DNA of 39,953 bases from the IMG/VR virus record IMGVR_UViG_2563366923_000006; one strand, 5' to 3'. This stretch comes from a virus (Duplodnaviria > Heunggongvirae > Uroviricota > Caudoviricetes). The notes beneath the pieces were generated by a model. That model searched no databases and had not been told where the DNA came from. It was given only the letters and a program-made list of their open reading frames with translations. Position numbers and translations under genes: made by a program. Positions within the stretch are counted from its first letter, which is position 1; each line of letters begins with the position of its first letter. Positions 463 to 39,577 of the stretch are shown in pieces.

Positions 463-483
463 ACCCACCTTCGGATGGGTTTA
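462..483. terminator. Hairpin between convergent genes (aaaccca-N-tgggttt with ttcg-type loop)
   Basis: Inverted repeat read directly; no strong T-run on either side, so terminator function is uncertain. Confidence 0.3.
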
Positions 484-495
484 TTCATATTCTAT

Positions 496-768: not shown

Positions 769-804
769 ATCATTTCTCCATCATAACCGGCTGCACCCGG
801 TGAG

Positions 805-1620: not shown

Positions 1621-1775
1621 GTGCGTATATATACGCAATGCAATTATTTTGCAAGTGCTTCATTTACTATCAATAGCTACGTCACGTTATCGTTTAATGG
1701 TTCTTTATAGGGGCGGCAATAGTTAAAATTATCGCTTCCGTAAACGCCCCCGCAGGGGCATTTGCAGTAATGAAA

Positions 1776-3911: not shown

Positions 3912-4115
3912 TTAACCTCCAGATTTCCGCGCATCTAAAGGCGCATTCTCATTTGGTGTGAACTGAATAGTTGTGCTGATATTGATTAATGCCCCGACAC
4001 ACAAGACTACGCACTCAGAGCAGATAGCAACTTCATCTTTTCCGCCTTTGGCGATGATTTTTTTTGCCTGCAGCTCGTTTGCGCCACAAAACGAGCATGT
4101 GAAATAACGGTTCAT
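3912..4115 (-). CDS. Small ClpX-type zinc-finger protein (C4), first gene after the PL-like promoter
   Basis: CSFCG...CSEC motif closely matches the ClpX N-terminal zinc-binding domain signature (recalled). Confidence 0.5.
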   Translation of the reverse strand: MNRYFTCSFCGANELQAKKIIAKGGKDEVAICSECVVLCVGALINISTTIQFTPNENAPLDARKSGG

Positions 4116-4299
4116 TTGCGCTCTCTTACACATAGTATTTAACGAATCATCCGGTCATTCATACGCCACCGGCGGCTACTTCGTGTTCGTCCTGACTGTT
4201 CGTTTTTGACATTTACTGACCGCTTACGACACATGCACCATGCACCGTGTTGCAACTAGATTTTGTTGTAATCCTGTAGTTGGTCTGGAACAAAAGATA

Positions 4300-4399: not shown

Positions 4400-5092
4400 T
4401 TAATTATGTCTCTTAAGGGTTTGCGACTGACTGATTAAGACCTTTCCAAAGACCATGAATCGGTGTTCGTTTTCGCTAGTAATTCCCCATTCACGGTAAA
4501 TCTGGTTATCAGAAATCACCAGCAGTTTGTCAGGAATCATTTGAAGTCTTTTAACGTATATTTTGTCATCAAAACCAAAGACATATATACCATCACCATC
4601 AAACTGATTGATGCTGACATCAACGAAGATGAGATCTCCTGGCTCAATGGTTGGACACATACTGTCCCCACGAACGTTGATAACTTTGATGTGATTGGCT
4701 GGTCGTCCGCCGAACATTGATACAGCATTATCAGTTCTGTATTCGATGGCATGAATCACATCAATGACATCACCGCCCTGGATAAGGCCATTTCCCGCAC
4801 TGGCACTGATATCCAACATTTCAATACGGAACACATCCTTCACCTGCGCAACATCCTCATCATTACTGTTTTTATATACAGTATTACTTTTGAGGGCAGA
4901 GGTAAAGAGATCAGCAATATCAACACCTAAGCTCTTGGCAATATTACTCAGTGTTTGTTCGGTAAATTGTTTCTGCTTACCCGTTTCTAAGCGCGAGATG
5001 TTCGCCGCATCTACTCCTATTGCTTCAGCGAGATCGGCGATTTTCATGTTCTTCGCTTGGCGAAGTTGTCTGACTCGTTTTCCTATGTTCAT
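4400..5092 (-). CDS. cI: CI-like phage repressor (XRE HTH + S24 LexA-like peptidase domain)
   Basis: N-terminal HTH; C-terminal S24-type domain; divergent from a Cro-like gene. Confidence 0.85.
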   Translation of the reverse strand: MNIGKRVRQLRQAKNMKIADLAEAIGVDAANISRLETGKQKQFTEQTLSNIAKSLGVDIADLFTSALKSNTVYKNSNDEDVAQVKDVFRIEMLDISASAGNGLIQGGDVIDVIHAIEYRTDNAVSMFGGRPANHIKVINVRGDSMCPTIEPGDLIFVDVSINQFDGDGIYVFGFDDKIYVKRLQMIPDKLLVISDNQIYREWGITSENEHRFMVFGKVLISQSQTLKRHN

Positions 5093-5450: not shown

Positions 5451-5994
5451 GCATCACTGGAAAATAGAAAAACAGCCTGAGTGGTACGTGAAAGCTGTCA
5501 GAAAAACTATCGCGGCGTTGCCGGGTGGTTACGCTGAAGCGGCTGATTGGCTCGATGTAACAGAAAACGCTTTATTCAACCGCCTTCGTGCAGATGGCGA
5601 TCAGATTTTCCCGCTGGGATGGGCAATGGTTTTACAGCGTGCTGGTGGCACTCACTTCATTGCTGATGCTGTGGCGCAGTCTGCAAATGGCGTATTTGTG
5701 TCTCTTCCTGACATCGAGGATGTGGACAACGCCGATATCAACCAACGCCTGCTGGAGGTCATTGAACAGATCGGCAGTTATTCAAAACAGATTCGTTCAG
5801 CAATTGAAGACGGTGTAGTGGAACCGCATGAGAAGACAGCAATTAACGATGAGCTGTACCTCTCAATTTCGAAGCTGCAGGAGCATGCAGCACTGGTCTA
5901 CAAAATCTTTTGCGTTTCAGAAAGTAGTGACGCCCGCGAGTGTGCAGCTCCGGGCGCCGTGGCGTGTCGTGACTGTGGAGAAACTAACGCATGA
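5443..5994 (+). CDS. CII-like phage regulatory protein (tentative), GTG start
   Basis: Position after cro; AGGAGG 6 nt upstream of GTG; family resemblance is from memory. Confidence 0.5.
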
Positions 5995-6329
5995 ACAGTT
6001 TAACAACACACTACCGTCGCTCGCAACTGATTGCGCTTCCTGTACCGGGTGGAAAAGCGAAGGTGGAGTATTGCTATGCAGTAAATGTACCAGGTGACAG
6101 GGTAATTGTAACCCACAGCTTTGCAGAGTGGGCTGTGGGTGATTTCAACCGGCAAAAGGAGACAGTCCTTTGCGACAAGTTAACCGCTGGTTCAAAGATC
6201 ACTACGGAGTGCCCGTCAGAGTCATTCGTTGGGAGCCGGAAACACAACGGGTTATCTACCTCCGCGAAGGCTATGAGTATGAGTGCTTCAGCCCGCTCGA
6301 ACAGTTTCGTCGTAAATTCAGGGAAATAG
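5991..6329 (+). CDS. Small ORF after cII-like gene; only the first ~60 codons look protein-like (tracked 112-aa ORF is probably over-extended)
   Basis: 3' half translates to S/A-rich junk while an alternate frame looks coding. Confidence 0.3.
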
Positions 6330-9313: not shown

Positions 9314-10309
9314 GTGACCGTGAGAGCACTACTGACCCCTGAAATAGCCCCGCGTATGGGGATTGTATTGTTCAGACCAGGTTCAGAGCTGATGCCCCTG
9401 TTTATGCAGGGGCGTGTCCTGCTGGAGCCTGAGCCGGAACGTTATTCATCTTTCGCCAGTGGTGCCGTTCCGGCGGCATCACAACCGCTGGCGGATGATC
9501 CTGCCGTTAGGGCCGTGTTCCGCAATGAGGCAGTGATCCGTCGTGCTGGTGGCGTGGAATGTCTTGAAAGCTGGTTACTTCGTGAAAAAGGCTGCCAGTG
9601 GCCTCATTCCGACTGGCACAGCGAGAACATGACCACAATGCGACACGCGCCGGGCGCGATCCGTCTGTGCTGGCACTGCGATAACCAGCTGCGCGATCAG
9701 TTCACGGAACGGCTGGAATCAATGGCAACGGATAACTGTGCCCGCTGGGTGTTGTCTGTAGTCCGTCGGGATCTCGGTTTTGATGATAACCATGCCGTGA
9801 CAATGCCGGAACTGTGCTGGTGGTTGATTCGTAATGACCTGGCGGATGCCTTACCGGAAAGTGCAGCCCGTAAGGCACTGAGATTACCGAAGCCTGTTGT
9901 GCCGTCTGTCACCCGGGAAAGTGACCTTGTGCCTTCGGTTCCTGCCACCAGCATCATCCAGGATAAGGCGAAAAAGGTGCTGGCGCTGAAAGTGGATCCG
10001 GAGTCGCCGGAGTCTTTTATGTTACGCCCAAAACGCCGCCGCTGGGTTAATGAAAAGTACACGCGCTGGGTTAAGACACAGCCGTGTGCATGTTGTGGAA
10101 AGCCTGCTGATGATCCCCACCACCTGATAGGCCACGGTCAGGGTGGAATGGGTACAAAAGCGCATGACCTCTTTGTGTTGCCTTTGTGCAGAAAGCATCA
10201 CGACGAGCTGCATGCGGATACCGTGGCATTTGAAGAGAAGTATGGCTCTCAGCTGGAGCTGATATTTCGTTTTATCGATCGTGCGCTGGCAATTGGCGTA
10301 TTGGCGTAA
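9314..10309 (+). CDS. DUF968-like phage protein with C-terminal HNH-like Cys/His motifs
   Basis: CACCGK...HHLIGHG...LCRKHHDELH at C-terminus; GTG start. Confidence 0.65.
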   Translation: MTVRALLTPEIAPRMGIVLFRPGSELMPLFMQGRVLLEPEPERYSSFASGAVPAASQPLADDPAVRAVFRNEAVIRRAGGVECLESWLLREKGCQWPHSDWHSENMTTMRHAPGAIRLCWHCDNQLRDQFTERLESMATDNCARWVLSVVRRDLGFDDNHAVTMPELCWWLIRNDLADALPESAARKALRLPKPVVPSVTRESDLVPSVPATSIIQDKAKKVLALKVDPESPESFMLRPKRRRWVNEKYTRWVKTQPCACCGKPADDPHHLIGHGQGGMGTKAHDLFVLPLCRKHHDELHADTVAFEEKYGSQLELIFRFIDRALAIGVLA

Positions 10310-10322
10310 GTGGAGAACGAGC

Positions 10323-11075
10323 ATGAACCTTGAAGCCTTACCAAAATATTACTCCCCAAAATCTCCAAAATTGAGCGATGACGCACCGGCGACAGGCTCA
10401 GGTGGTTTAACGATTACGGATGTGATGGCTGCGCAGGGGATGGTGCAGTCGAAAGCACCGCTTGGGTTTGCCTTATTCCTGGCAAAAGTTGGTGTTCAGG
10501 ATCCTCAATTTGCGATTGAAGGTCTGCTCAATTACGCGATGGCACTGGATAACCCGACATTGAACAAATTGAGTGAAGAAACCCGGTTACAGATCATCCC
10601 TTACCTTGTGAATTTTGCCTTTGCTGATTATTCCAGGTCTGCGGCAAGTAAGGCTCGCTGTGAGCATTGTGCTGGTACTGGATTTCATAATGTATTGCGC
10701 GAAGTGGTGAAACACTCCAGAAGCGGGGAATCTGTTATCAAGGAAGAGTGGGTGAAGGAACTATGTCAGCATTGTCATGGTAAGGGAGAAGTCAGCACAG
10801 CGTGCAGAGGGTGTAAGGGTAAAGGTATTGTCCTGGATGAAAAAAGGACCCGGCTTCATGGCACGCCTGTTTATAAGATTTGTGGGCGTTGCAATGGAAA
10901 CCGGTTTAGCCGTTTACCAACCACACTGGCGCGGCATCATGTCCAGAAGCTGGTACCAGACCTGACGGATTATCAGTGGTACAAAGGATATGCAGATGTC
11001 ATTGATAAACTGGTTACAAAGTGCTGGCAGGAAGAAGCATATGCAGAGATACAATTGAGAAAGGTGACAAGATAA
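10323..11075 (+). CDS. Putative late-gene antiterminator (Q-like) with four CxxCxGxG zinc-finger repeats
   Basis: Position just upstream of the late promoter; CEHCAGTG, CQHCHGKG, CRGCKGKG, CGRCNGNR repeats. Confidence 0.55.
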   Translation: MNLEALPKYYSPKSPKLSDDAPATGSGGLTITDVMAAQGMVQSKAPLGFALFLAKVGVQDPQFAIEGLLNYAMALDNPTLNKLSEETRLQIIPYLVNFAFADYSRSAASKARCEHCAGTGFHNVLREVVKHSRSGESVIKEEWVKELCQHCHGKGEVSTACRGCKGKGIVLDEKRTRLHGTPVYKICGRCNGNRFSRLPTTLARHHVQKLVPDLTDYQWYKGYADVIDKLVTKCWQEEAYAEIQLRKVTR

Positions 11076-11681: not shown

Positions 11682-12734
11682 ATGAAAAATACTGTAAAAA
11701 TAAACAGTGTTGATTTAATCAACGCTGATTGCCTGCATTTTATTCAGTCCCTGCCTGATGATTCCATTGACCTGATTGTTACCGATCCGCCTTACTTCAA
11801 GGTGAAACCTAACGGTTGGGACAATCAGTGGAAAGGGGACGAAGATTACCTTAAGTGGCTGGACCACTGTCTGGCCCAGTTCTGGCGGGTGTTGAAACCT
11901 GCCGGAAGCCTTTACCTGTTCTGTGGGCATCGCCTGGCATCTGATATTGAGATCATGATGCGTGAACGTTTCAACGTGCTTAACCATATCATCTGGGCGA
12001 AGCCGTCCGGACGTTGGAATGGGTGTAATAAAGAAAGTCTGCGCGCATATTTTCCTGCCACAGAGCGCGTTCTGTTTGCTGAACATTACCAGGGGCCATA
12101 TCGCGGCAAAAGTGACGGCTATGCGGCAAAAGAAAGGGAACTCAAACAGCACATAATGGCACCGCTGATATCGTATTTCAGGGATGCTCGTGCCGAACTG
12201 GGTATAACGGCAAAACAAATTGCCGAAGCCACAGGTAAGAAAAATATGGTTTCCCACTGGTTTGGTGCCAGTCAGTGGCAGTTGCCGAATGAGGCTGACT
12301 ATCGGAAGTTACAGGCACTGTTTTCCCGTATAGCGGCAGAGAAGTTTCAGGAACAACAACTGGAACAACCACACCACCAGCTGGTGGCATCTTATGATTC
12401 ACTGAATCGCAAATATTCTGAATTGCTGGATGAGTTTAAATCTCTCCGGCGCTATTTCTCCGTATCAGTTTCCGTGCCTTATACCGATGTCTGGACGCAT
12501 AAGCCCGTTCAGTTCTATCCGGGTAAACATCCGTGCGAGAAACCGGCGGATATGCTCCGGCAAATAATCAATGCCAGTAGTCGACCTGGTGATCTGGTTG
12601 CTGATTTCTTTATGGGATCCGGTTCCACAATAAAAGCAGCAATGGCGCTGGGGCGTCGGGCGTTAGGTGTTGAACTTGAGTCAGAGCGGTTTAATCAGAC
12701 GGTGAAAGAGGTAAGTGAACTGGTGGGGAAATAA
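11682..12734 (+). CDS. Orphan DNA N6-adenine/N4-cytosine methyltransferase (DPPY motif)
   Basis: IVTDPPY motif and later FxGxG; no adjacent restriction gene. Confidence 0.8.
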   Translation: MKNTVKINSVDLINADCLHFIQSLPDDSIDLIVTDPPYFKVKPNGWDNQWKGDEDYLKWLDHCLAQFWRVLKPAGSLYLFCGHRLASDIEIMMRERFNVLNHIIWAKPSGRWNGCNKESLRAYFPATERVLFAEHYQGPYRGKSDGYAAKERELKQHIMAPLISYFRDARAELGITAKQIAEATGKKNMVSHWFGASQWQLPNEADYRKLQALFSRIAAEKFQEQQLEQPHHQLVASYDSLNRKYSELLDEFKSLRRYFSVSVSVPYTDVWTHKPVQFYPGKHPCEKPADMLRQIINASSRPGDLVADFFMGSGSTIKAAMALGRRALGVELESERFNQTVKEVSELVGK

Positions 12735-25683: not shown

Positions 25684-25832
25684 CGGCTGAATACCTCACT
25701 GATCGCTTCTTTGACTGCGCCAGTTACTGGCGCATTAATCCCTTCGAATTGCTGAATATGCCGATCAGTGAAATTCCCTTGCTGGTCAGTCAGGCAAACA
25801 GGATAGAGCAGGAGAAACGCACACATGGCTGA
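25650..25832 (+). CDS. -1 frame extension of tail assembly chaperone (programmed frameshift at T TTT TTC, 25665-25671)
   Basis: Slippery heptamer in zero frame; -1 frame stays open to the start of the tape measure gene. Confidence 0.6.
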   Translation: MACGRFFPPGLTAEYLTDRFFDCASYWRINPFELLNMPISEIPLLVSQANRIEQEKRTHG

Positions 25833-27660
25833 ATTTGAGCTTAAGGCGTTGATCACCGGTGTCGACAGGCTTTCTCCCGCGCTGTCGAAAATGCAAAAGA
25901 AAATCCGGGGATTTAAACGCCAGGCGGAAGAAGCGTCACAGGGTGGGCTGGCGCTTGGTGGCGGACTGGCAGCGGGTCTGACGCTTTCCCTGAAATCTTA
26001 TGCCGATCAGGAAAACGCCGCCACCGGGCTGAAAGTCGCCATGATGGATGCGAACGGCGAGGTTGGAAAGAGCTTTCAGGACATCAATAAACTGGCTATT
26101 GGCCTGGGTAACCAGCTACCCGGTACAACGGCTGATTTCCAGAACATGATGCAGATGCTGGTGCGTCAGGGGATCCCGGCAGAAAACATTCTTGGTGGTG
26201 TGGGTAAAGCGACAGCTTATCTTGCGGTACAACTGAAAAAAACACCGGAAGCGGCTGCTGAGTTTGCTGCAAAGATGCAGGATGCTACCGGAACGGCGTC
26301 AGAAGACATGATGGGGCTGTTCGACACTATCCAGAAGGCGTTTTATCTGGGCGTTGACGATACCAACATGTTGTCCTTCTTCACTAAAACCAGTTCTGTT
26401 CTGAAGATGGTGAACAAGGACGGTCTTCAGGCTGCACAGAGCCTTGCCCCCATCAGCGTCATGATGGATCAGATGGGGATGAACGGGGAGTCGGCAGGTA
26501 ATGCCCTGCGAAAAGTTATCCAGTCCGGATTAAGCGTTAAGAAAATCAGGGACGTCAATAAAGTCATGGCCCGCCAGAGACTCGGGGTACAGCTCGATTT
26601 TACTGACGGCAAAGGAAGTTTTGGCGGTCTTGATAACATGTTCAGGCAACTGGCAAAGCTGCGAAAACTGACCGACGTTAAGCGAACAGGTGTACTTAAG
26701 GCAATATTTGGTGATGATGCCGAAACCCTTCAGGTGGTCAATGCACTAATCGATAAAGGAAAGGATGGCTACGATCAGATCCAGCAGAAGATGAATAAAC
26801 AGGCCAGCCTGAATAAACGTGTTCAGGCACAGCTTGGTACGCTGTCCAACCTGTGGGAGGCAATGACGGGGACCGCAACTAACGGCCTTGCGGCTATTGG
26901 CGGCGCATTTTCTGGTGACGCCAAAAATATTACGCAATGGCTGGGGGAGTTGGGGGAAAAATTCACGAAGTTTGCGGATGAAAATCCCCGGGTTATTCGC
27001 GGCGTCGTCGGGCTTGCTGCCGGTCTTGCGATTCTGAAACTGGGATTGATGGGCGTTGGCGGTGCCATCAGTATTGTCAGCAGGATCATGTCGATGACGC
27101 CGATTGGCATGATTGCGACGGCGATAGCCCTGGCTGCGGGATTAATTATCACTAACTGGGATGTTGTCGGACCTTATTTCAAGAAGCTCTGGGAAACCAT
27201 TGGTCCTTATTTTGAGGCTGGCTGGGAACTTCTGAAGAAGGTTTTTGCCTGGTCGCCGCTGGGGATGGTAATCAATAACTGGGGACCGGTTGTTAAGTGG
27301 TTTCAGGATATGTGGGACAAGCTGAAGCCAATTATTGAGTGGTTTACCGACAGTTCCGGTGACACGGTCGATGCCATTAACTCGGCGCAGTGGGGCGCGG
27401 GTGCTTATGATGCTTATGGGACGGGAATACCGGCGCGGGGATACACACCTTATCCGGCGGTAGATCCGGCTCAGTCAAACAACGCCTCCGATGCTACAGG
27501 CCCGAATCCCTTCATGATTAACAAAGCTTCTGCGCCAAAAGTTGACGGTGAGATCAAGGTCTCTTTTGTGAATTCGCCTCCGGGTATGCGGGTTATGGAA
27601 ACGCGATCCAGCGGTTTTGATATAAATCACGATGTTGGCTATACGCATATTGGCAGATGA
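25825..27660 (+). CDS. Tail tape measure protein
   Basis: 611 aa, Ala/Gly-rich with hydrophobic segments. Confidence 0.85.
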   Translation: MAEFELKALITGVDRLSPALSKMQKKIRGFKRQAEEASQGGLALGGGLAAGLTLSLKSYADQENAATGLKVAMMDANGEVGKSFQDINKLAIGLGNQLPGTTADFQNMMQMLVRQGIPAENILGGVGKATAYLAVQLKKTPEAAAEFAAKMQDATGTASEDMMGLFDTIQKAFYLGVDDTNMLSFFTKTSSVLKMVNKDGLQAAQSLAPISVMMDQMGMNGESAGNALRKVIQSGLSVKKIRDVNKVMARQRLGVQLDFTDGKGSFGGLDNMFRQLAKLRKLTDVKRTGVLKAIFGDDAETLQVVNALIDKGKDGYDQIQQKMNKQASLNKRVQAQLGTLSNLWEAMTGTATNGLAAIGGAFSGDAKNITQWLGELGEKFTKFADENPRVIRGVVGLAAGLAILKLGLMGVGGAISIVSRIMSMTPIGMIATAIALAAGLIITNWDVVGPYFKKLWETIGPYFEAGWELLKKVFAWSPLGMVINNWGPVVKWFQDMWDKLKPIIEWFTDSSGDTVDAINSAQWGAGAYDAYGTGIPARGYTPYPAVDPAQSNNASDATGPNPFMINKASAPKVDGEIKVSFVNSPPGMRVMETRSSGFDINHDVGYTHIGR

Positions 27661-27676
27661 CGGAACCAGATATAAT
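27650..27676 (+). promoter_or_regulatory. Moron promoter candidate (TTGGCA-N15-TATAAT)
   Basis: Sigma70-like hexamers read directly. Confidence 0.45.
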
Positions 27677-27712
27677 TTGTCTTTAAGTTTGTTATCAACT
27701 GAAGGGAAATCT

Positions 27713-28090
27713 ATGGGTCTGTTACATGCCATTATAGGTAATGCCGGTGAAATTAATGCATCAGATGCACAACAGGAATTAGGGGCTGTTTTAGGTGAGG
27801 GAGAAAATGTCGAACTTGCCTATAAACTCATTCGTGACCAAATTATTCTGACTAACAGAAGGTTAATTTTTATTGATAAGCAGGGTGTCACAGGGAAAAA
27901 AGTAGAGTATCGTTCGATTCCTTATAAATCTGTGACAAACTTTTCTATTGAAACCGCCGGGCATCTTGATCTTGATGCTGAAATGAAGATATGGATTTCT
28001 GGTATTGCAGAACCGATAAAAAAACAGTTCAGTAAAGGAGCAAACATTTATAAATTGCAGGCTCATCTGGCTCAAAAAATAGCAGGGTAA
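27713..28090 (+). CDS. AT-rich moron protein with bacterial PH-domain-like pattern
   Basis: GAAGGGAAA upstream; composition visibly AT-richer than flanks; own promoter and terminator. Confidence 0.6.
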   Translation: MGLLHAIIGNAGEINASDAQQELGAVLGEGENVELAYKLIRDQIILTNRRLIFIDKQGVTGKKVEYRSIPYKSVTNFSIETAGHLDLDAEMKIWISGIAEPIKKQFSKGANIYKLQAHLAQKIAG

Positions 28091-28116
28091 ACCTTACATT
28101 AATTTATGTCTTTCAT

Positions 28117-28139
28117 GCCCACTTCGGTGGGCTTTTTTA
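28117..28139 (+). terminator. Rho-independent terminator after moron
   Basis: GCCCAC-TTCG-GTGGGC followed by TTTTTT. Confidence 0.75.
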
Positions 28140-28153
28140 TATCCGGAGTTTAT

Positions 28154-29524
28154 ATGACGTGGAAAGACAGGCTTCAGGACGCGTCATTTCGCGGTGTGCC
28201 GTTTAAGGTTGAAGAAGAAAGTGCGGGAACAGGTCGCCGTGTGGAAACACACGAATATCCGAACCGCGACAAACCCTATACCGAAGATCTGGGAAAAGTC
28301 ACTTTCCGCCCGTCCATCACGGCTTATGTGGTGGGCGATGACTGCTTTGACCAGCGCGATCGCCTGATTGACGCGCTGAATAAACCCGGTCCCGGCACGC
28401 TTGTCCACCCGACTTACGGTGAGCTGAAAGTCTGTGTTGACGGAGAGGTTCGGGTCAGCACATCGAAAAGTGAAGGGCGTATTGTCCGCTTTGACCTGAA
28501 GTTTGTCGAAGCGGGAGAACTCTCTTACCCCACATCAGGTGCGGCGACGGCGCAGACGCTGATGTCATCCTGTTCTGCACTGGATGACTGCATCAGTGAC
28601 AGCTTCAGCGGTTTCAGTATCGATGGTGTGGCGGATTTCGTGCAGAACGACGTTATCGGTAATGCCAGCATAATGCTGGGGTATGTTTCTGATGCGATGA
28701 AAGTGGTGGATTCTGCCGTATCGGATGCCGCCAGGCTGTTGCAGGGGGATATCTCGGTACTTCTGCCGCCGCCATCGTCAGGCAAAAATTTCGTTGAGCA
28801 GGTGCAGAAAATGTGGCGTACCGGGAAACGCCTTTATGGTAACGCCAGCGACCTGGTCACCATGATCAAAACGCTTTCCGGTGTCAGCCTCGGCAGCGAT
28901 CTGCAACCGCGCGGCGTCTGGAAAACGGACAGTAAAACCACCGCCACGGCGACGCAGCAGCGTAACGTGGTTGCCAGCACCCTTCGTGCGACCGCAATCA
29001 GCGAAGCGGCGTATGCCGTCACCCGATTGCCTGCGCCAACAACTTCCGCGGTGATGCAGAATGCCGCAGTGGGGCAGTCAACAACTTCCGCGGTGATGCA
29101 GAATGCCGCAGTGGGGCAGTCAACAACTTCCGCGCAGAGCACCGGCTGGCCTTCCGTCACGCATCCGGCACTGAACAATGCACCGGCGGTGAAAAACACG
29201 GTTGACCTGCCAACGTGGGAAGAACTGACTGACATTCGCGACACACTGAATACGGCAATTGATAAGGAGTTGTCCCGTACAACCAGTGATGCGCTGTTTC
29301 TGGCGCTGCGCCGGGTGAAAGCAGATCTGAATGCGGATATCAACACGCGCCTTGAACAGTCTGCTCGGATCATTCAGCGCACGCCGGATGAGGTCTTACC
29401 CGCGCTGGTGCTGGCGGCGACCTGGTTTGATAACGCGGCGCGTGACGCGGACATTATCCGGCGTAATGCCATTACGCATCCCGGCTTTGTGCCGGTGATC
29501 CCTCTGAAGGTGCCAGTGCAATGA
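28154..29524 (+). CDS. DNA circularization protein N-like (Mu gpN-type tail protein)
   Basis: N-terminal MTWKDRLQDASFRGVPFKVE pattern; GGAG SD. Confidence 0.75.
   Translation: MTWKDRLQDASFRGVPFKVEEESAGTGRRVETHEYPNRDKPYTEDLGKVTFRPSITAYVVGDDCFDQRDRLIDALNKPGPGTLVHPTYGELKVCVDGEVRVSTSKSEGRIVRFDLKFVEAGELSYPTSGAATAQTLMSSCSALDDCISDSFSGFSIDGVADFVQNDVIGNASIMLGYVSDAMKVVDSAVSDAARLLQGDISVLLPPPSSGKNFVEQVQKMWRTGKRLYGNASDLVTMIKTLSGVSLGSDLQPRGVWKTDSKTTATATQQRNVVASTLRATAISEAAYAVTRLPAPTTSAVMQNAAVGQSTTSAVMQNAAVGQSTTSAQSTGWPSVTHPALNNAPAVKNTVDLPTWEELTDIRDTLNTAIDKELSRTTSDALFLALRRVKADLNADINTRLEQSARIIQRTPDEVLPALVLAATWFDNAARDADIIRRNAITHPGFVPVIPLKVPVQ
29037..29134 (+). repeat. In-frame 42-bp tandem duplication (2.3 copies) encoding repeated TTSAVMQNAAVGQS
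   Basis: Two perfect 42-bp copies (29037-29078, 29079-29120) plus 14-bp partial third. Confidence 0.9.
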
Positions 29525-33196: not shown

Positions 33197-33865
33197 ATGC
33201 ATCGTATAGACACGAAAACCGCGCAGAAGGATAAGTTCGGCGCGGGTAAGAACGGTTTTACCCGTGGTAATCCCCAGACTGGTACGCCTGCCACCGATCT
33301 GGATGATGACTACTTTGACATGTTGCAGGAGGAGCTTTGCAGCGTTGTGGAGGCATCCGGTGCCAGCCTGGAGAAGGGGCGGCATGACCAGTTGCTTACC
33401 GCACTTCGCGCACTGCTGTTAAGCCGCAATAATCCGTTTGGTGATATCAAATCGGACGGCACGGTACCAACGGCTCTCGAAAACCTTGGTTTAGGAGATA
33501 TCAGTGCTACAGGTGTTGCGACAGGTAGTATGGGCGGAACCGGATATGCCATATTTCCGATGATGATTGGCGGTGCACGTAAGACTTTTATTATGCAATG
33601 GGGATTGCTGACGCCTCTGAAATCAGGTGGCTATGTGAATATTAACCTTCCTGTCGCTTTTCCTACTATGGTGATGCAGGCATATGCAACACATGATAAT
33701 GCGACACTAAACACACGCCCGACAGTATATGCAATTACTACAACAAGCCGAACCACTATCACTGCGACGGCGACGTGCTTAGATGCTGGCTCAGTGGGCG
33801 CTACAGTGACACGCAGTAGTGACGATACTGCGTGTTACGGTCGTTATTTTGCAATAGGGTGCTGA
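33197..33865 (+). CDS. Tail fibre protein; constant N-terminus fused to variable C-terminus inside invertible segment
   Basis: [10 protein letters not shown]-terminus typical of e14/Mu-type fibres; recombination site inside the gene. Confidence 0.8.
33475..33498. repeat. Invertase crossover site, left (hix/gix-like; GAAAACC-TT-GGTTTAG)
   Basis: Inverted partner at 35337-35362; encodes ENLGLGD. Confidence 0.65.
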
Positions 33866-33866
33866 A

Positions 33867-34310
33867 ATGAATCTTAAATATTTTTCTCCATCTGAAAATG
33901 CGTTTTATGCCGGGGAGCTTAAAGAAAGCTATATCGCTGCTGGCTCATGGCCTTCTGATGCCTCGGAGGTTGATGAAAGTCTTTATCTTGAGTTTATCGA
34001 TAAACCGCCAGCAGGTAAGTATCGAGGAGTGGATAATGCAGGAATGCCCTGCTGGCTTGAAATTCCTCCTCCCACAGTAGAGGAAATGGCATCGAATGCA
34101 GAGAATATAAGACAGCAGCTCATTGATAAGGCAAATGTTTATATAAACAATCGTCAGTGGCCGGGAAAAGCAGCGATAGGCCGTTTAAAGGCAGATGAAC
34201 TGGAACGATATAACCTTTGGCTGGATTATCTGGACGCACTGGAACTGGTCGATACTTCCGGTGCGCCAGATATTGAATGGCCTACGCCTCCGGCAGCTCA
34301 GGCCAGATGA
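33867..34310 (+). CDS. Tail fibre assembly protein (Tfa)
   Basis: C-terminal LDYLDALELVDTS-APDIEWP motif. Confidence 0.75.
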   Translation: MNLKYFSPSENAFYAGELKESYIAAGSWPSDASEVDESLYLEFIDKPPAGKYRGVDNAGMPCWLEIPPPTVEEMASNAENIRQQLIDKANVYINNRQWPGKAAIGRLKADELERYNLWLDYLDALELVDTSGAPDIEWPTPPAAQAR

Positions 34311-34884
34311 CATCCGGCGCGGTGCTGGTATCCGTTGCCGTCACCGCGTCAATGTAATCCAGCACAGCGTTTAATCGGGTGGTTTCTGTCTGCGTCAGCT
34401 TCCTCCCGGCCTGCAATTTCAGTTGAATCAGACTAATGGAAGCCATTGCAGTATCAATCAGTGACTGACGCTGTGCTTCTGCCGCGCTTACTGCGGCGCT
34501 ATGCTGTGCCTCAGTATCTGTCACCCATTTCTCACCATCCCATTTATCGTATGGCGTTAACGGGGCGATAGTGGTTGTATTTTCGGGGTAATCACCCAGA
34601 GCTGTGATTTCTTTGGCGTCTCCCGTTTCGGTGTTATAGACGATTTCACCGCGATGGTCTGGCACATATTCCCATGAGTTTAAATCTGCCGAACGGCAGA
34701 TTGCATAACCAGCCTTATGTATACCAGGTTCATCCAGACAGGAATATGCCGGGATACCAACACCAACGGCAAGATATTCATTTGAAGTGGAAATATATTC
34801 CCGAGTTTCACCATCATAGCTATAGACGGTAATATCCCCCGCCTTCGTGGCAATAAGCTCGCTATTTAATACAGCGTTATCCAT
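34282..34884 (-). CDS. Alternative tail fibre assembly protein (Tfa')
   Basis: Shares C-terminal LDYIDAVTATDTSTAPDVIWP motif with Tfa. Confidence 0.75.
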   Translation of the reverse strand: MDNAVLNSELIATKAGDITVYSYDGETREYISTSNEYLAVGVGIPAYSCLDEPGIHKAGYAICRSADLNSWEYVPDHRGEIVYNTETGDAKEITALGDYPENTTTIAPLTPYDKWDGEKWVTDTEAQHSAAVSAAEAQRQSLIDTAMASISLIQLKLQAGRKLTQTETTRLNAVLDYIDAVTATDTSTAPDVIWPELPEA

Positions 34885-35349
34885 TATGCAGCCCTCACGA
34901 TAAAGTTAAATGCAATATTTCGCGCACGTGTTTCCGTTGATGTTCTGGCAACAAGTGATGCATCAAAATAATAATTCGCCTGTTTATATGTACCACCTGT
35001 CGCAATTGGTGTGAGATTTGGTTGCACTATTGAAGAGGTAAATGCGCCGAAAGTATTATTATTTGTCCCCGTGGTCATATCAAAAAAGCTACCTGTAATA
35101 TTTTGCAGCGTATCGCTCTGAGCACTCAATAACGCTCGCCCACTGTCCACTCCACGCCCATCATCCCAGCCACGAATAAACTCACCCCGCAGATCTGGCA
35201 GCACAAGACCGGGGTAAACCAGTGCCAGCTTCGGATAATTTTCAGCTGCAAATGGAGCGCCGTTACATTTCAGCCATCCTGTTGGTGGAGTGGCTAAAGG
35301 CCACGGAACAGGCACACCAACGGGTAATGCCGAACCTTCTCCCAAACCA
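34884..35349 (-). CDS. Alternative tail-fibre C-terminal cassette (Sv'), expressed only after inversion
   Basis: Begins at crossover (INVGLGEGSA); LPDLRGEFIRGWDDGRG tail-collar-like motif. Confidence 0.65.
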
Positions 35350-35362
35350 ACGTTTATGAAAA
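35337..35362. repeat. Invertase crossover site, right (CCAAACC-AA-CGTTTAT)
   Basis: Reverse complement matches left site around the TT core. Confidence 0.65.
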
Positions 35363-35416
35363 TGCAGAAATAGCGCGCAAATGGCATCGTTCCTGTTTTT
35401 GTCAGGAGGAGCTATC

Positions 35417-35973
35417 ATGCTTATTGGCTATGTTCGCGTATCAACAAATGACCAGAACACCGATCTACAACGTAATGCGTTGAACTGTGCAGGATGTGAG
35501 CTGATTTTTGAAGACAAGATAAGCGGTACAAAGTCCGACAGACCAGGACTGAAAAAGCTGCTCAGGACATTATCGGCAGGTGACACGCTGGTGGTCTGGA
35601 AACTGGACCGACTGGGGCGCAGTATGCGGCATCTTGTCGTGCTGGTGGAAGAGTTGCGCGAACGTGGCGTTAATTTTCGCAGCCTGACGGATGCTATTGA
35701 TACCAGCACACCAATGGGGCGCTTTTTCTTTCATGTGATGGGTGCCCTGGCTGAAATGGAGCGAGAGTTTATTGTCGAACGTACTAGGGCGGCTTTGCCG
35801 CAGCACGACAAGAAGGGAGGAACGGTGGGCGAAAGCCAAAGCTGACAGTAGAACAATGGGGGCAGGCTGGCAGGTTGATTGAATCGGGAATATATCAGCA
35901 GCAAGTCGCACTGATTTATGATCTGGGTATTTCAACGGTGTATAAAAAATTCCCTGTAGCAAGTAAACCATAG
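35417..35973 (+). pseudogene. Serine DNA invertase (Pin/Gin/Hin family), apparently frameshifted, separating the catalytic domain from the C-terminal HTH
   Basis: Catalytic domain intact to ~35790, then premature stop at 35845; the +1 frame continues as a Gin-like HTH (PKLTVEQWGQAGRLIESGI...) to 35973. Confidence 0.65.
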
Positions 35974-35999
35974 CCTTACGCCACATTGATGATCGCGGA

Positions 36000-36695
36000 T
36001 TATGCACTATTTTTAGGTCTTGTAACCCGAGGTGGGAGTTGTTTGGTTATATGTTCAAGTGATTTTTTGCCCAAGATAGTTCTTTGGACAAAACTTTCTA
36101 TAGCTTCTAGCATTTGTTCGAACTCACTTTTATTCGGGCTCCAACTGCGATGTGCGGCGGCGTTTCCTGCATCAATTACTGAAGATATAACGCATGCCTC
36201 AGTGTCGCCTATGACTCCATCTTGTTTTAATTTTTCAACTTTTTCACCAAGCGGCAAACCGGGGTGAATTTGTAACAGTTCAGCAGTTCGATCAAAAATC
36301 GTCCGTAAACCGATGGACGAAAGAATGAAATGGTCAGAAGTATATGAAGAATACATTTCATTAAATATTTGAAAGAGCTGACGATCAACTGATTCAAGCT
36401 TGGATAACCATATCGGAGCTTGAAATGTTTCAGCGGCAGGATAGGTAGTGATCATATCTATAGGCGTTTCTACAAATTCACCATCACGATATTCGTGGGT
36501 AGTATGCTCACTGAAGTGTTCGTTGTGGTGATAGAAGACAGTATCACAGCCATTGCATTGGAGTAGGTGATGGTAATGGTACCCATAAACTGGATATTGG
36601 GAATCCTCCCAGCTAGTGGTTAGCTTCCCATGCACAGTGCAGTTACGTAACCCACCGCATGTAGGGCAAAGAGCCTTGAGTATTTCCTTTTTCAT
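36000..36695 (-). CDS. Cargo protein: N-terminal zinc ribbon (CxxC...CxxC) plus C-terminal helical domain resembling DUF4145
   Basis: Cys pairs C10/C13 and C47/C50; C-terminal GDTEACVISSVIDAGNAAAH resembles the DUF4145 GNxxAH motif (recalled); AT-rich. Confidence 0.55.
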   Translation of the reverse strand: MKKEILKALCPTCGGLRNCTVHGKLTTSWEDSQYPVYGYHYHHLLQCNGCDTVFYHHNEHFSEHTTHEYRDGEFVETPIDMITTYPAAETFQAPIWLSKLESVDRQLFQIFNEMYSSYTSDHFILSSIGLRTIFDRTAELLQIHPGLPLGEKVEKLKQDGVIGDTEACVISSVIDAGNAAAHRSWSPNKSEFEQMLEAIESFVQRTILGKKSLEHITKQLPPRVTRPKNSA

Positions 36696-36770
36696 AAAGT
36701 CTCTGATTCTATATGTAGGTTAAGACCACTATTAGCTATACGGACCTAATAATCAATCGTGTGCAGATAC

Positions 36771-37353: not shown

Positions 37354-38451
37354 TCAAGAGGTCTTATTTCTGCTCCTTTGGAGCTCTTCAAAACGATTAT
37401 GTAAAGATTTCGGATACAGTTCGGTATATACCTGCCATAGCACGTTTAATGAACGATGCCCTGTAACTTGGGCGACTTCCTCAATACTAAAACCAGCCTC
37501 AAATAAGCGACTTGCCCCTTCTCTACGCAAATCATGGTATCGCAGATCCTTAATACCTAATTTGCTTCTTACTCTCTGAAATCCCGCAGTAACAGAAGTG
37601 CTGTTATATGGAAAAATGAATTCCGATTTTTGGGGCTGTCGTTGGACGATATCCCAGGCTTCCCCAAGCAAGGCTACTTTCATGTGGTTACCTTCCTTTT
37701 TGCGTGGATCTTTCCTGTCTCTTACGAGTATAGATTTTTGTTCCTGGTCGAGATCTTCCCATCGTAACCGGCATACTTCTCCGATTCGCATACAGGACCA
37801 TACAGAAAATTTGAGGATATCAACGAACGGAATTTTTGAGCATTTATGAGTAGATCGTTGTTGAAGGCCTGCAATGAGCATGTCCAGTTCATCAGATGCT
37901 GGTCTACGATTACGACGGTTTGATTTACCAATCAAACCAAGTTTAAGTAGATATGGGCGAGCGCTTTTCGCCGGGTTTGATGTGTAATTAATTCCGTATA
38001 CAGGTTTGGCCGCATCCAGAACACTGCCAAGATAACTAACATCGTGGCTGACTGTTGCAGGACCTGCACCAGCGTTGTTTCTTAGCCTGCAATGTTCAAT
38101 TACGTCATTTTCTGTCAGTTCAGATAGTTTGATCGCGGAGATGTCACTATCCATAAGCAGTTCCAGCACATATCTTTTAGTACGGCCTGCTTTACCTCCG
38201 GCATTTGGGTCATTTAAATATTTGTGTAGTAAGTCACGGACTGTAAGTCCGTCAACTGCATTTGATGATGGAATGCCATATAGATCTAATTCCATCACTT
38301 TCTGTGTGCCCCATGTTTTGGCATGAGCATGTTTAGGGAATGTTTTGCTTTCCCTGTAAGTGATAACACCTTTTTCTTTGATAATCACATTACAGCGATA
38401 GCGTGGTGTGCCATCGGATTTTAGTCGTTTCTCTATGTTATAGTACGCCAT
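37354..38451 (-). CDS. int: Tyrosine integrase (dusA-associated type)
   Basis: 365 aa with C-terminal catalytic motifs (HDLRR ... VTGH ... Y); abuts dusA. Confidence 0.9.
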   Translation of the reverse strand: MAYYNIEKRLKSDGTPRYRCNVIIKEKGVITYRESKTFPKHAHAKTWGTQKVMELDLYGIPSSNAVDGLTVRDLLHKYLNDPNAGGKAGRTKRYVLELLMDSDISAIKLSELTENDVIEHCRLRNNAGAGPATVSHDVSYLGSVLDAAKPVYGINYTSNPAKSARPYLLKLGLIGKSNRRNRRPASDELDMLIAGLQQRSTHKCSKIPFVDILKFSVWSCMRIGEVCRLRWEDLDQEQKSILVRDRKDPRKKEGNHMKVALLGEAWDIVQRQPQKSEFIFPYNSTSVTAGFQRVRSKLGIKDLRYHDLRREGASRLFEAGFSIEEVAQVTGHRSLNVLWQVYTELYPKSLHNRFEELQRSRNKTS

Positions 38452-38468
38452 TACACGACCTCGTTATT

Positions 38469-38505
38469 TCGGGTTCCCATAAAACGTGGGAACCTGTGCG
38501 GGAAC
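38469..38505. repeat. Three copies of a 9-bp GGGAACC-containing motif (one inverted) in the int-dusA intergenic region
   Basis: CGGGTTCCC 38469-38477, GTGGGAACC 38486-38493, GCGGGAACC 38498-38505. Confidence 0.5.
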
Positions 38506-38539
38506 CTAACGCGAGAAAAATAGCCTGAAATGTTCAAAA

Positions 38540-39577
38540 ATGCACGATAATCATGAAACACAAAAAATTAATCAAACCAGCGTGATGCCTGAAAAAACTG
38601 GTGTTTACTGGAATTCTCGGTTTAGCATTGCTCCTATGCTCGACTGGACGGACAGACATTGCCGCTATTTCTTGCGTCTGCTTTCCCGCAATACGTTGCT
38701 GTATACTGAAATGGTAACTACAGGGGCGATTATTCACGGTAAAGGTGATTACCTGGCGTATAGTGAAGAAGAACATCCGGTAGCGTTGCAACTCGGCGGT
38801 AGCGATCCGGCGGCGCTGGCGCAGTGTGCGAAGCTGGCAGAAGCGCGTGGATATGATGAGATCAACCTGAATGTCGGCTGCCCGTCTGACCGGGTGCAGA
38901 ACGGCATGTTTGGTGCGTGTCTGATGGGTAATGCGCAGCTGGTTGCCGACTGCGTGAAAGCGATGCGCGATGTGGTGTCGATTCCGGTGACGGTGAAAAC
39001 GCGTATTGGCATCGACGACCAGGACAGCTATGAATTTCTCTGCGATTTCATCAACACCGTTTCCGGCAAAGGCGAGTGTGAGATGTTCATCATCCATGCA
39101 CGTAAAGCCTGGCTTTCGGGGTTAAGTCCGAAAGAAAACCGTGAGATCCCGCCGCTCGATTATCCGCGTGTGTATCAACTGAAGCGTGACTTTCCGCATC
39201 TGACAATGTCGATTAACGGTGGTATCAAGTCGCTGGAAGAGGCCAAAGCACACCTGCAACATATGGATGGCGTGATGGTCGGGCGCGAGGCGTATCAGAA
39301 TCCGGGTATTCTGGCGGCGGTAGACCGGGAGATCTTTGGTTCCTCGGATATCGATGCCGATCCGGTGGCGGTAGTGCGCGCCATGTATCCGTACATTGAG
39401 CGTGAACTCAGCCAGGGGACGTATCTCGGTCATATTACCCGGCATATGTTGGGCTTGTTCCAGGGTATTCCTGGCGCGCGGCAGTGGCGGCGTTATTTAA
39501 GTGAAAATGCCCATAAAGCGGGTGCAGACATTAATGTGCTGGAACACGCGCTCAAACTGGTGGCGGATAAGCGTTAA
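38540..39577 (+). CDS. dusA: tRNA-dihydrouridine synthase A; 5' end probably element-derived
   Basis: 345 aa typical DusA; first ~35 codons AT-rich unlike the rest of the gene. Confidence 0.9.

What the first reader, a model, noticed from the sequence alone, without database searches (positions are those of the whole stretch)
27650..28139. Self-contained moron (promoter, AT-rich ORF, terminator) between tape measure and baseplate genes
A 126-aa ORF is inserted between two otherwise tightly packed tail genes. It has its own sigma70-like promoter (TTGGCA-N15-TATAAT), a good SD, and a strong rho-independent terminator, and its base composition is clearly AT-richer than its neighbours. The protein has a bacterial PH-domain-like pattern. 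This is the classic architecture of a lysogen-expressed moron, possibly a superinfection-exclusion or other host-benefit function.
Basis: partly seen in the sequence, partly recalled or inferred. Interest (0 to 1): 0.6.

Follow-up and report, generated by a model that had tools for sequence, protein, structure and literature searches.

The report
Prophage cargo gene: bacterial PH-domain moron
A small, AT-rich accessory gene for a bacterial PH-domain ring protein sits at a swap site between two tail genes of an E. coli prophage; it is an ordinary phage "moron", but nobody yet knows what its protein does.

Summary
A 125-aa ORF (27713-28090, +) lies between the tape-measure gene and the Mu-N-like hub gene. 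Its GC is 0.38, against 0.52 and 0.57 for its neighbours. TTGGCA-N15-TATAAT precedes it and a GC hairpin with a T-run follows it. The protein is a full-length Pfam bPH_1 member, about 60% identical to the pentameric PHb1 crystal structures 3DCX and 3HSA.

Comparison supports the moron reading. SfII, SfV and SfI have the same junction without the gene. Only 28 of about 1094 E. coli genomes with this junction carry it, and IS1 breaks it in four. At least three other AT-rich cargo genes use the same slot, one of them antisense and Sie-like.

Two corrections apply. The terminator hairpin and the -35 hexamer belong to the phage backbone, not the cargo. The 15-nt spacer is suboptimal.

The gene is under strong purifying selection (dN/dS about 0.02 between two alleles). 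In unrelated temperate phages its homologues sit in the repressor-integrase operon, next to defence-like genes.

Lysogenic expression and function remain untested. My best guess is a lysogen-expressed phage-exclusion or envelope-associated factor. It is a new member of a known kind, of modest interest.

The parts
25825..27660 (+). Tail tape-measure gene (context, upstream neighbour)
   Evidence: PF10145 PhageMin_Tail E 1e-26 and tape-measure PHROGs. It is 98-99% identical at the protein level to the SfII TMP.
27650..27655 (+). -35-like hexamer TTGGCA, inside the last codons of the TMP gene (backbone sequence)
   Evidence: Read directly. The same TTGGCA is present at the end of the SfII TMP gene, which has no cargo. 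It is part of the only >=11/12 promoter-like site in the window.
27661..28097 (+). Cargo segment: DNA present here but absent from SfII, SfV and SfI (net +433 bp); boundaries approximate to about 20 nt on the right
   Evidence: Similarity to SfII stops at 27656 and resumes at 28118. Similarity to the other cargo states stops at 27644-27646 (alignment). GC of the segment is 0.373.
27671..27676 (+). -10 hexamer TATAAT (cargo sequence), 15 nt after the -35-like hexamer
   Evidence: It is the only TATAAT on the + strand of the window. Allele B has TATAAC at the same place.
27701..27707 (+). Shine-Dalgarno-like GAAGGGA, 5-6 nt before the ATG
   Evidence: The block is conserved in allele B (GGAAGGGG), whereas the 5' UTR between the -10 and this block is not alignable.
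27713..28090 (+). PHb1 (bPH_1) gene, 125 aa plus stop
   Evidence: PF08000 E 3e-48 over profile positions 2-121 of 122. phrog_7115 E 6e-54. PDB 3DCX and 3HSA at E 4e-39 and 1e-38. dN/dS about 0.02 against allele B. RefSeq annotates it as 'PH domain-containing protein' WP_001514801.1.
28117..28138 (+). Intrinsic-terminator-like hairpin GCCCAC-TTCG-GTGGGC plus T6 (backbone feature shared with empty sites)
   Evidence: A homologous hairpin is present in cargo-free SfII, where it is annotated as a terminator. It is also present at the 225-aa lipoprotein cargo state.
28154..29524 (+). Mu N / gp43-like 'DNA circularisation' / baseplate-hub gene (context, downstream neighbour)
   Evidence: PF07157 E 3e-34 and phrog_184 baseplate hub E 2e-143.

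Best explanation
This is a moron: an accessory gene acquired horizontally and parked at a cargo hot spot between the tape-measure gene and the Mu-N-like hub gene of a lambdoid, SfV-type temperate phage with a contractile Mu-like tail.

Shown:
- The roughly 435-bp AT-rich segment is an insertion relative to close relatives.
- The slot holds alternative cargo genes in other prophages.
- The gene is intact and under strong purifying selection.
- It encodes a soluble 125-aa PHb1 protein that keeps every residue of the family's conserved acidic binding site.

Inferred:
- Transcription starts at a hybrid sigma-70 promoter, formed by a backbone -35 inside the TMP's last codons and a cargo -10. The start would be near 27683.
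- Transcription stops at the backbone hairpin at 28117-28138, so the gene can be made in the repressed prophage without switching on the baseplate genes.
- During lytic growth, Q-antiterminated late transcription reads straight through.
- The protein forms a pentameric dome-shaped ring like its 60%-identical crystallised relatives and binds a basic partner protein through the acidic sites at the ring's base.
- The most likely payoff is protection of the lysogen against other phages at an early, envelope-proximal step, or some other change to a membrane-associated complex.

Rough probabilities:
- Accessory cargo, not a tail part: 0.95.
- Independently expressed in the lysogen: 0.6.
- Anti-phage or exclusion role specifically: 0.35.
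For: Insertion and hot spot:
- SfII, SfV and SfI match both flanks at 95-96% identity but span 568 bp where the window spans 1001 bp.
- Of 5426 complete E. coli genomes, 1094 have the junction. Only 28 have the PH gene.
- The same slot holds a 170-aa secreted protein in 85 genomes, a 225-aa lipoprotein in 55, and an antisense OB-fold membrane protein in 72.
- The OB-fold protein matches phrog_8545 'superinfection exclusion Sie-like' at E 5e-49.
- All cargos are AT-rich, with GC 0.31-0.42.

Not structural:
- IS1 interrupts the gene in 4 prophages.
- Plaque-forming phages exist with it (Edwardsiella phage EPP-1) and without it (SfII, SfV).

Functional gene:
- Against allele B there are 57 synonymous and 14 non-synonymous differences, giving dN/dS of about 0.02.
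- D42, D55, Q57, K63, E80, D86, D88 and E90 of the PHb1 binding site are all retained.

Expression signals:
- The promoter-like site is unique in the window.
- The -35/-10 block and the SD block are conserved between alleles, while the UTR between them is not.
- The terminator is predicted by scan and by folding.
- The window encodes CI, Q and integrase, so the late operon is antiterminated.

Lysogenic-module homologues:
- ul36 has CI, ImmA, ORF355, PH and int on one strand.
- A Vibrio 186-like phage has CI, PH, a SIR2 defence protein (PADLOC E 3e-64) and int.
- Five low-GC prophage contigs have HTH, AlbA2/HATPase, PH, one more ORF and int.
- Xu et al. 2010 (PMC2817789) had already noted PHb1 in phage lysogeny modules.
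Against: - No transcription data are available.
- The 15-nt spacer is outside the usual 16-18 nt range, and the standard scan misses the site.
- Allele B has TATAAC, lacking the key final T.
- The gene has the same orientation as the late operon, so it could be expressed only as a late gene.
- The protein has no hydrophobic segment: maximum Kyte-Doolittle(19) is 0.58. The three other cargos at the site score 1.7-2.2.
- It matches no PADLOC defence model, no NCBIfam model and no PHROG with a known function.
- Chromosomal homologues sit in unrelated housekeeping neighbourhoods, not defence islands.
- The molecular function of the PHb1 family is unknown.
- The gene is rare and sometimes broken by IS1, so any benefit is conditional.
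Confidence: 0.5

Rival explanations
1. Lytic-cycle passenger. The gene is transcribed only as part of the Q-antiterminated late operon. It acts during phage development, for example by modifying a host complex late in infection, and not in the lysogen. The promoter-like motif would then be a chance or very weak site.
For: - The gene is on the same strand as the late genes and has a good SD.
- Q is present.
- The 15-nt spacer is suboptimal and the scanner does not report the site.
- The -35 is simply TMP coding sequence also found in SfII.
- Allele B has TATAAC.
- One site of this quality per window is about what shuffles give, 0.86.
Against: - Homologues in four unrelated temperate phage groups lie in the repressor-integrase operon, not among late genes.
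- Another cargo at this very slot is antisense to the late operon, so it must be transcribed independently.
- The promoter block travels with the gene as non-coding DNA in allele-B phages and stays about 76-81% identical, while synonymous sites are saturated.
Confidence: 0.2
2. Host-physiology moron. The gene is expressed in the lysogen but gives the host a PHb1-type envelope or stress function that E. coli otherwise lacks, rather than acting against other phages.
For: - No other copy of this gene is detectable by DNA search in 5426 E. coli genomes. Distant protein homologues were not searched for.
- Chromosomal PHb1 genes are widespread and very conserved, at 60-66% identity from Vibrionaceae to Clostridia, and sit in housekeeping contexts.
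- According to Xu et al. 2010, B. subtilis YozO is in the sigma-W envelope-stress regulon and YvbH fractionates with the membrane.
Against: - In prophages the gene's neighbours are defence-like genes: SIR2, Schlafen/AlbA2, and a Sie-like alternative cargo.
- It is rare, in 0.5% of E. coli genomes, and broken by IS1 in 4 of 28.
- No phenotype is known for any family member.
Confidence: 0.25
3. Structural or assembly component of the Mu-type tail, for example a chaperone or cap acting with the tape-measure protein.
For: - It is positioned directly after the TMP gene.
- The family forms rings.
- It is kept at the same position in E. coli, Edwardsiella and IMG/VR prophages.
Against: - It is absent from SfII, SfV, SfI and about 97% of E. 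coli prophages with the same junction.
- IS1 disrupts it in some prophages.
- C5 symmetry does not match tail symmetry.
- Close homologues are stand-alone chromosomal genes.
- Its base composition is foreign to the tail module.
Confidence: 0.03
4. Functionless hitch-hiker: a recently captured gene with no selected role in the phage or lysogen.
For: It is rare, IS1-disrupted copies exist, and allele A is nearly clonal at >=99.2% identity across 24 genomes.
Against: - dN/dS is about 0.02 with saturated synonymous sites between alleles A and B, which occupy the same slot.
- All binding-site residues are retained.
- Carriage in several unrelated phage lineages looks independent.
Confidence: 0.07

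Closest known systems
PHb1 proteins of Pfam PF08000 (bPH_1, formerly DUF1696), crystal structures 3DCX (Shewanella loihica) and 3HSA (S. amazonensis); Xu et al. 2010, PMC2817789
   Same: - Single-domain protein of about 125 aa.
- About 60% identical over the full length.
- Full-length HMM match.
- All eight residues of the conserved acidic inter-subunit site are retained at the same numbering.
   Different: - It is carried by a prophage tail module rather than a chromosome.
- The H67/H76 inter-strand pair of PHb1(sl) is R67/N76 here.
- The oligomeric state was not tested.
- The family's function is unknown, so membership does not give a mechanism.
Phage-borne PHb1 genes in lysogeny modules: Lactococcus phage ul36 ORF124, Microbacterium phage Min1 ORF77, Vibrio phage 10N.286.45.B12_PE001 gene 4
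   Same: They are stand-alone bPH_1 proteins of 121-125 aa carried by temperate phages as non-essential cargo. Xu et al. noted the ul36 and Min1 cases.
   Different: - Those genes lie between repressor and integrase and are co-oriented with them. Here the gene sits inside the late tail operon with its own promoter-like site.
- They are only 37-45% identical.
Morons of lambdoid phages (the HK97/HK022 concept), in particular the HK97 gp15 moron in the tail-gene region, a superinfection-exclusion protein (Cumby et al. 2012; I know this paper from memory and saw it here only as a reference)
   Same: - An extra gene between two conserved tail genes of a Q-regulated lambdoid phage.
- Deviant AT-rich composition.
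- A promoter-like site upstream and a terminator downstream.
- Absent from close relatives.
   Different: - There is no sequence relationship.
- From my own knowledge, gp15 is an inner-membrane protein. This protein has no hydrophobic segment.
- Expression and phenotype are untested here.
- The terminator, and half of the promoter, are backbone sequence.
Lactococcal sie285 (bIL285 ORF2), a PHb-domain membrane protein listed among prophage superinfection-exclusion genes (PMC6127208; Xu et al. 2010)
   Same: It is a prophage-encoded protein that is produced in lysogens and contains a PHb core.
   Different: - It belongs to the distant 'third group', with an N-terminal extension (181 aa) and membrane association.
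- The paper I read reports a resistance phenotype only for sie309 and sie312.
- This is a lead, not evidence of function.
Alternative cargo at the same TMP/N slot: the OB-fold (PF12869) membrane protein matching phrog_8545 'superinfection exclusion Sie-like'
   Same: It occupies the same slot in the same prophage family, is AT-rich, and is small.
   Different: It is an unrelated protein, lies on the opposite strand with its own terminator, and has an N-terminal transmembrane segment.

Membership tests
Moron (extra transcription unit in a phage genome) | Gene present between two genes that are adjacent in closely related phages | tested here: met
   SfII, SfV and SfI have the TMP and N genes about 60 nt apart, where the window has 493 nt. 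Only 28 of 1094 E. coli genomes with the junction carry the gene.
Moron (extra transcription unit in a phage genome) | Base composition different from the surrounding phage genes | tested here: met
   GC is 0.378 (GC3 0.286), against 0.517 and 0.567 in the flanking genes. This is the lowest 3.6% of 378-bp windows.
Moron (extra transcription unit in a phage genome) | Own promoter upstream | tested here: inconclusive
   TTGGCA-N15-TATAAT is the only >=11/12 site in the window. However, the spacer is 15 nt, the standard scan misses it, the -35 is TMP coding sequence shared with cargo-free SfII, and allele B has TATAAC. Activity was not measurable here.
Moron (extra transcription unit in a phage genome) | Terminator downstream | tested here: met
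   A hairpin plus T6 lies at 28117-28138. It is a backbone feature also present at empty sites, so it was not brought in with the gene.
Moron (extra transcription unit in a phage genome) | Expressed from the repressed prophage | not testable with these tools
   The only support is indirect: homologues in other phages lie in the CI-int operon.
Pfam bPH_1 / PHb1 group 1 (PF08000) | Full-length match to the family model above the curated threshold, in a single-domain protein of about 125 aa | tested here: met
   163.2 bits against a cut-off of 27.7, covering profile positions 2-121 of 122. 3DCX and 3HSA match at E about 1e-39.
Pfam bPH_1 / PHb1 group 1 (PF08000) | Conserved acidic inter-subunit site (D42, D55, Q57, K63, E80, D86, D88, E90 in PHb1(sl)) | tested here: met
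   All eight residues are identical at the same positions in the translated ORF, checked against the residue list in the paper.
Pfam bPH_1 / PHb1 group 1 (PF08000) | C5 pentameric dome-shaped ring | not tested
   Inferred from about 60% identity to two pentameric crystal structures. The H67/H76 interface pair is replaced by R67/N76.
Superinfection-exclusion (Sie) proteins / known anti-phage defence systems | Sequence membership in a described Sie or defence family | tested here: not met
   No PADLOC hit at E <= 1. The PHROG matches are families of unknown function. There is no NCBIfam hit.
Superinfection-exclusion (Sie) proteins / known anti-phage defence systems | Membrane anchor or export signal, typical of injection-blocking Sie proteins | tested here: not met
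   Maximum Kyte-Doolittle(19) is 0.58. The three other cargos at the slot score 1.7-2.2.
Superinfection-exclusion (Sie) proteins / known anti-phage defence systems | Reduces infection by other phages | not testable with these tools
   This needs plating assays.
Structural component of Mu-type contractile tails | Conserved in syntenic tail modules | tested here: not met
   The gene is absent from SfII, SfV, SfI and most E. coli prophages with this module. IS1 disrupts it in four prophages.

The most novel reading that the evidence does not exclude
Stand-alone PHb1 rings may be a widespread, so far unrecognised class of prophage-encoded, lysogen-expressed factors acting against incoming phages, or modulating neighbouring defence genes. 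They would work as a soluble pentameric cap that binds a basic segment of a membrane-associated or phage protein. On this reading, the TMP/N junction of SfV-type prophages is a hot spot whose alternative cargos (a secreted protein, a lipoprotein, a Sie-like OB-fold protein and PHb1) are interchangeable phage-exclusion modules. That would give the PF08000 family, structurally solved in 2010 but still without a function, its first testable biological role.
Probability: 0.25. Interest if true: 0.55.

Novelty: new member of a known kind. Interest (0 to 1): 0.3.

Why it matters
Morons are where temperate phages keep genes that change their hosts, and this one is a clean natural experiment. One slot in one tail operon is empty in roughly half of an evenly spaced sample of matching records. 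Where it is filled, it holds at least four unrelated small genes. If the PHb1 cargo has a phenotype, it would assign a first function to a protein family conserved from Vibrionaceae to Clostridia. If it does not, this is simply one more annotated hypothetical prophage gene. Nothing here challenges current understanding.

Tried and rejected
Searches that found nothing useful:
- PADLOC and NCBIfam gave no hits for the PH protein.
- Rfam on 27300-28500 found nothing above gathering score. There were only weak isrB-like and Polynucleobacter-1 matches, the former overlapping the terminator.
- The built-in promoter scan misses the site because of the 15-nt spacer. It also found no convincing upstream promoter for the other cargos, so I cannot claim that every cargo brings its own promoter.
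- Literature searches for 'bacterial PH domain' with 'prophage', DUF1696, PF08000, YvbH, and bPH with 'phage defense' gave no functional study of PHb1 beyond Xu et al. 2010.
- A search for a described moron at this SfV-type junction found only a different moron, between Q and the lysis genes of SfIV.
- The Mahony 2008 paper on lactococcal sie genes is not held.

Leads I downgraded or rejected:
- I considered sie285, a PHb-containing Sie candidate, as functional precedent. I downgraded it because it belongs to a distant group with an N-terminal extension, and the paper I read reports phenotypes only for sie309 and sie312.
- Gene neighbourhoods of chromosomal homologues (Edaphovirga, Photobacterium, a gammaproteobacterium, a Clostridium-type contig) share no partner gene, so context gives no function.
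- I rejected the longer 152-aa ORF starting at 27632. The Pfam match starts at residue 3 of the 125-aa form, and an SD precedes 27713.
- I rejected a structural role (see rival explanations).
- I did not run structure prediction, because 60%-identical crystal structures already exist.
Full report
**What is there**

The window is a complete lambdoid temperate prophage with a Mu-like contractile tail, of the Shigella SfV/SfII/SfI type.
- It encodes a CI-type repressor (4400-5092, -), a Q antiterminator (10281-11075) and an integrase (37354-38451, -).
- It also has an HK97-type head and Mu-type tail genes, by analogy with a related annotated E. coli prophage.
- Between the tape-measure gene (25825-27660, PF10145) and the Mu-N-like 'DNA circularisation'/hub gene (28154-29524, PF07157) lies an ORF at 27713-28090 (+). 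It is 125 aa plus stop, not 126.

**The sequence signals**

- TTGGCA (27650-27655), a 15-nt spacer and TATAAT (27671-27676) precede the ORF.
- GAAGGGA lies about 6 nt before the ATG.
- GCCCAC-TTCG-GTGGGC plus T6 lies at 28117-28138.
- The ORF has GC 0.378 and GC3 0.286. The flanking genes have 0.517 and 0.567, and the window has 0.51.
- The built-in promoter scan does not list the site, because it requires a 16-18 nt spacer.
- A scan with spacers of 15-19 nt finds it as the only site matching at least 11 of 12 positions on either strand, and as the only TATAAT on the + strand.
- Shuffled sequence gives 0.86 such sites per window. The count alone is therefore unremarkable; the placement directly in front of the ORF is what counts.

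**It is an insertion at a cargo hot spot**

- Phages SfII, SfV and SfI match both flanks at about 95-96% identity. They span 568 bp where the window spans 1001 bp.
- In SfII the TMP stop is followed by about 60 nt and then the N gene.
- Similarity to SfII ends at 27656 and resumes at 28118.
- Among 5426 complete E. coli genomes, 1094 contain this junction.
- Only 28 contain the PH gene. All copies are at least 99% identical and all sit at this site. In four of them an IS1 element splits the gene.
- In an evenly spaced sample of 60 matching records, about half have the empty 568-bp junction.
- The same slot holds other cargo in other genomes:
  - a 170-aa protein with a signal-peptide-like N-terminus, in 85 genomes (also in phage SKA5);
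  - a 225-aa lipoprotein with a lipobox, in 55 genomes;
  - an OB-fold protein with an N-terminal transmembrane segment, encoded on the opposite strand, in 72 genomes.
- The OB-fold protein matches phrog_8545 'superinfection exclusion Sie-like' at E 5e-49.
- All these cargos are AT-rich, with GC 0.31-0.42.
The ORF is not a conserved structural component of syntenic tail modules.

**Corrections to 'self-contained'**

- The terminator hairpin is not cargo. A homologous hairpin (GTCCCAC-TCCG-GTGGGA plus T6) sits at the empty SfII junction, where the depositors annotated it as a terminator. The same hairpin follows the lipoprotein cargo.
- The -35 hexamer lies in the last codons of the TMP gene and is also present in cargo-free SfII.
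- What was inserted is therefore the -10 element, a 36-nt leader and the ORF. The promoter-like site is a backbone/cargo hybrid.
- Because the phage has Q, a terminator inside the late operon is tolerated during lytic growth. This rests on established knowledge of lambdoid Q antitermination. In the lysogen the terminator would confine any transcript from the cargo promoter.

**A second, old allele**

- IMG/VR prophage contigs L015 and L016, Edwardsiella tarda prophages and the plaque-isolated Edwardsiella phage EPP-1 carry a version 89-91% identical in protein at the same slot.
- Against the window allele there are 57-60 synonymous but only 14-18 non-synonymous differences. Synonymous sites are saturated and dN/dS is about 0.02.
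- The gene has therefore been kept under strong purifying selection for a long time.
- L016 has flanking tail genes 94-99% identical to the window (TMP 86%) but carries the divergent allele. The cassette is evidently exchanged between backbones.
- In these phages the TMP gene ends differently. A non-coding remnant of the window-type TMP 3' end, including TTGGCA, travels with the cargo.
- The -35/-10 block is about 81% identical between alleles and the SD block is also conserved. The leader between them is unalignable.
- That pattern fits functional expression signals. However, the -10 in this allele is TATAAC, which lacks the important final T.

**The protein**

- It is a full-length member of Pfam bPH_1 (PF08000, E 3e-48) and of phrog_7115, a family of unknown function.
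- It is about 60% identical to the Shewanella PHb1 crystal structures 3DCX and 3HSA.
- Xu et al. 2010 (PMC2817789) showed that those proteins form dome-shaped C5 pentamers. A conserved, mostly acidic site is built from two adjacent subunits. The authors predicted that it binds a partner protein rather than lipid.
- All eight residues of that site are retained here: D42, D55, Q57, K63, E80, D86, D88 and E90.
- The protein has no hydrophobic segment.
- The nearest non-phage relatives are stand-alone chromosomal genes: Edaphovirga at 72%, and Photobacterium, Shewanella and many Firmicutes at 60-66%.
- Their neighbourhoods are unrelated housekeeping genes.
- No other copy of the gene is detectable by DNA search in the E. 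coli genome set. Distant protein homologues were not searched for.

**When and why it is likely expressed**

- I could not measure transcription.
- The best indirect evidence comes from other temperate phages that carry stand-alone PHb1 genes. In each one the gene sits in the lysogeny operon, co-oriented with repressor and integrase.
  - Lactococcus ul36 has CI, ImmA, ORF355, PH and int.
  - A Vibrio 186-like phage has CI, PH, a SIR2-domain protein and int. The SIR2 protein matches PADLOC SIR2 defence models at E 3e-64.
  - Five low-GC prophage contigs have HTH, a Schlafen-AlbA2/HATPase protein, PH, one more ORF and int.
- Xu et al. had already noted PHb1 in phage lysogeny modules.
- Together with the Sie-like alternative cargo at this slot, this points to a lysogen-expressed function in phage-phage or phage-host conflict.
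- The protein matches no known defence or Sie family, and no member of PF08000 has a demonstrated function.

**Explanation I commit to**

- It is a moron. It is probably transcribed from the hybrid promoter near 27683 to the backbone terminator in the repressed prophage, and read through with the late operon after induction.
- The product is a soluble PHb1 ring that binds a basic partner at its acidic sites.
- The most likely payoff is exclusion of other phages, or modification of a membrane-associated complex.
- My probabilities:
  - accessory cargo rather than tail part, 0.95;
  - independent lysogenic expression, 0.6;
  - anti-phage role, 0.35;
  - host envelope or stress physiology, 0.25;
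  - purely late-expressed accessory, 0.2;
  - no function, under 0.1.

**Comparison and novelty**

- The architecture matches the lambdoid moron concept. From my own knowledge, it resembles the HK97 gp15 moron in the tail region; that paper was seen here only as a reference. There is no homology, and this protein has no membrane anchor.
- RefSeq already annotates the gene as 'PH domain-containing protein'.
- PHb1 genes in phages were noted in 2010.
- I found no description of this TMP/N junction as a cargo hot spot.
- It is a new member of a known kind, of modest interest.
- The open question of PHb1 function is what gives it any value beyond routine annotation.

Noticed in passing
Junction equivalent to window 27645-28150 in other genomes (L002, L022, L023, L024, L025): The TMP/N junction has several alternative states. 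It can be empty, or hold PHb1, a 170-aa secreted protein (phrog_8976), a 225-aa lipoprotein (phrog_1353), or an antisense OB-fold membrane protein (PF12869, phrog_8545 Sie-like) with its own minus-strand terminator. The three non-PH cargos all have hydrophobic N-termini.
   Followed up: partly
L003 1636-2789 (E. coli EC_J_9) and three other genomes: An IS1 element is inserted inside the PH gene, splitting it into 33-aa and 100-aa fragments.
   Followed up: yes
L015 about 4060-4160, L016 about 5900-6000, also L027 and L034: In allele-B phages, a non-coding remnant of a window-type TMP 3' end lies between the phage's own, different TMP stop and the PH gene. It is about 76% identical to the window sequence and includes the TTGGCA hexamer. 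This implies the cassette moved together with its upstream flank.
   Followed up: partly
L035 3150-5437 (Vibrio phage 10N.286.45.B12_PE001): A PHb1 gene lies directly upstream of a 612-aa SIR2-domain protein inside the CI-integrase operon. The SIR2 protein matches PADLOC pAgo-associated SIR2 models at E 3e-64. In L017-L020 the PHb1 gene lies directly downstream of a Schlafen-AlbA2/HATPase protein. I did not test whether PHb1 is a functional partner of these genes.
   Followed up: no
window 33197-35845: This looks like an invertible tail-fibre segment. Tail-fibre tip and assembly genes lie on the + strand (33197-34310). An opposed set lies on the - strand (34282-35387; Caudo_TAP and Collar domains). 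A serine invertase follows (35381-35845; Resolvase domain, E 7e-49).
   Followed up: partly
window 35860-36700: An AT-rich segment (GC about 0.39) encodes a 230-aa DUF4145 protein on the - strand, between the invertase and the integrase. It may be another cargo or defence-type gene.
   Followed up: no
window 37354-39577: The integrase (37354-38451, -) lies next to a dihydrouridine synthase gene (38540-39577, +; Dus, E 2e-104). This suggests the prophage is integrated at or beside a dus gene.
   Followed up: no
window 1-1640: This is the most AT-rich part of the window, with a minimum GC of 0.278 in 378-bp windows. A 276-aa minus-strand ORF (805-1638) there has no Pfam match. A DUF2303 gene lies next to it (1776-2600, -).
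   Followed up: no
window 11682-12734: An N6/N4 DNA methyltransferase gene (PF01555, E 1e-42) lies between the Q antiterminator and the lysis genes. This is a known moron position in SfV-type phages; PMC3851460 describes a different moron at that place in SfIV.
   Followed up: no
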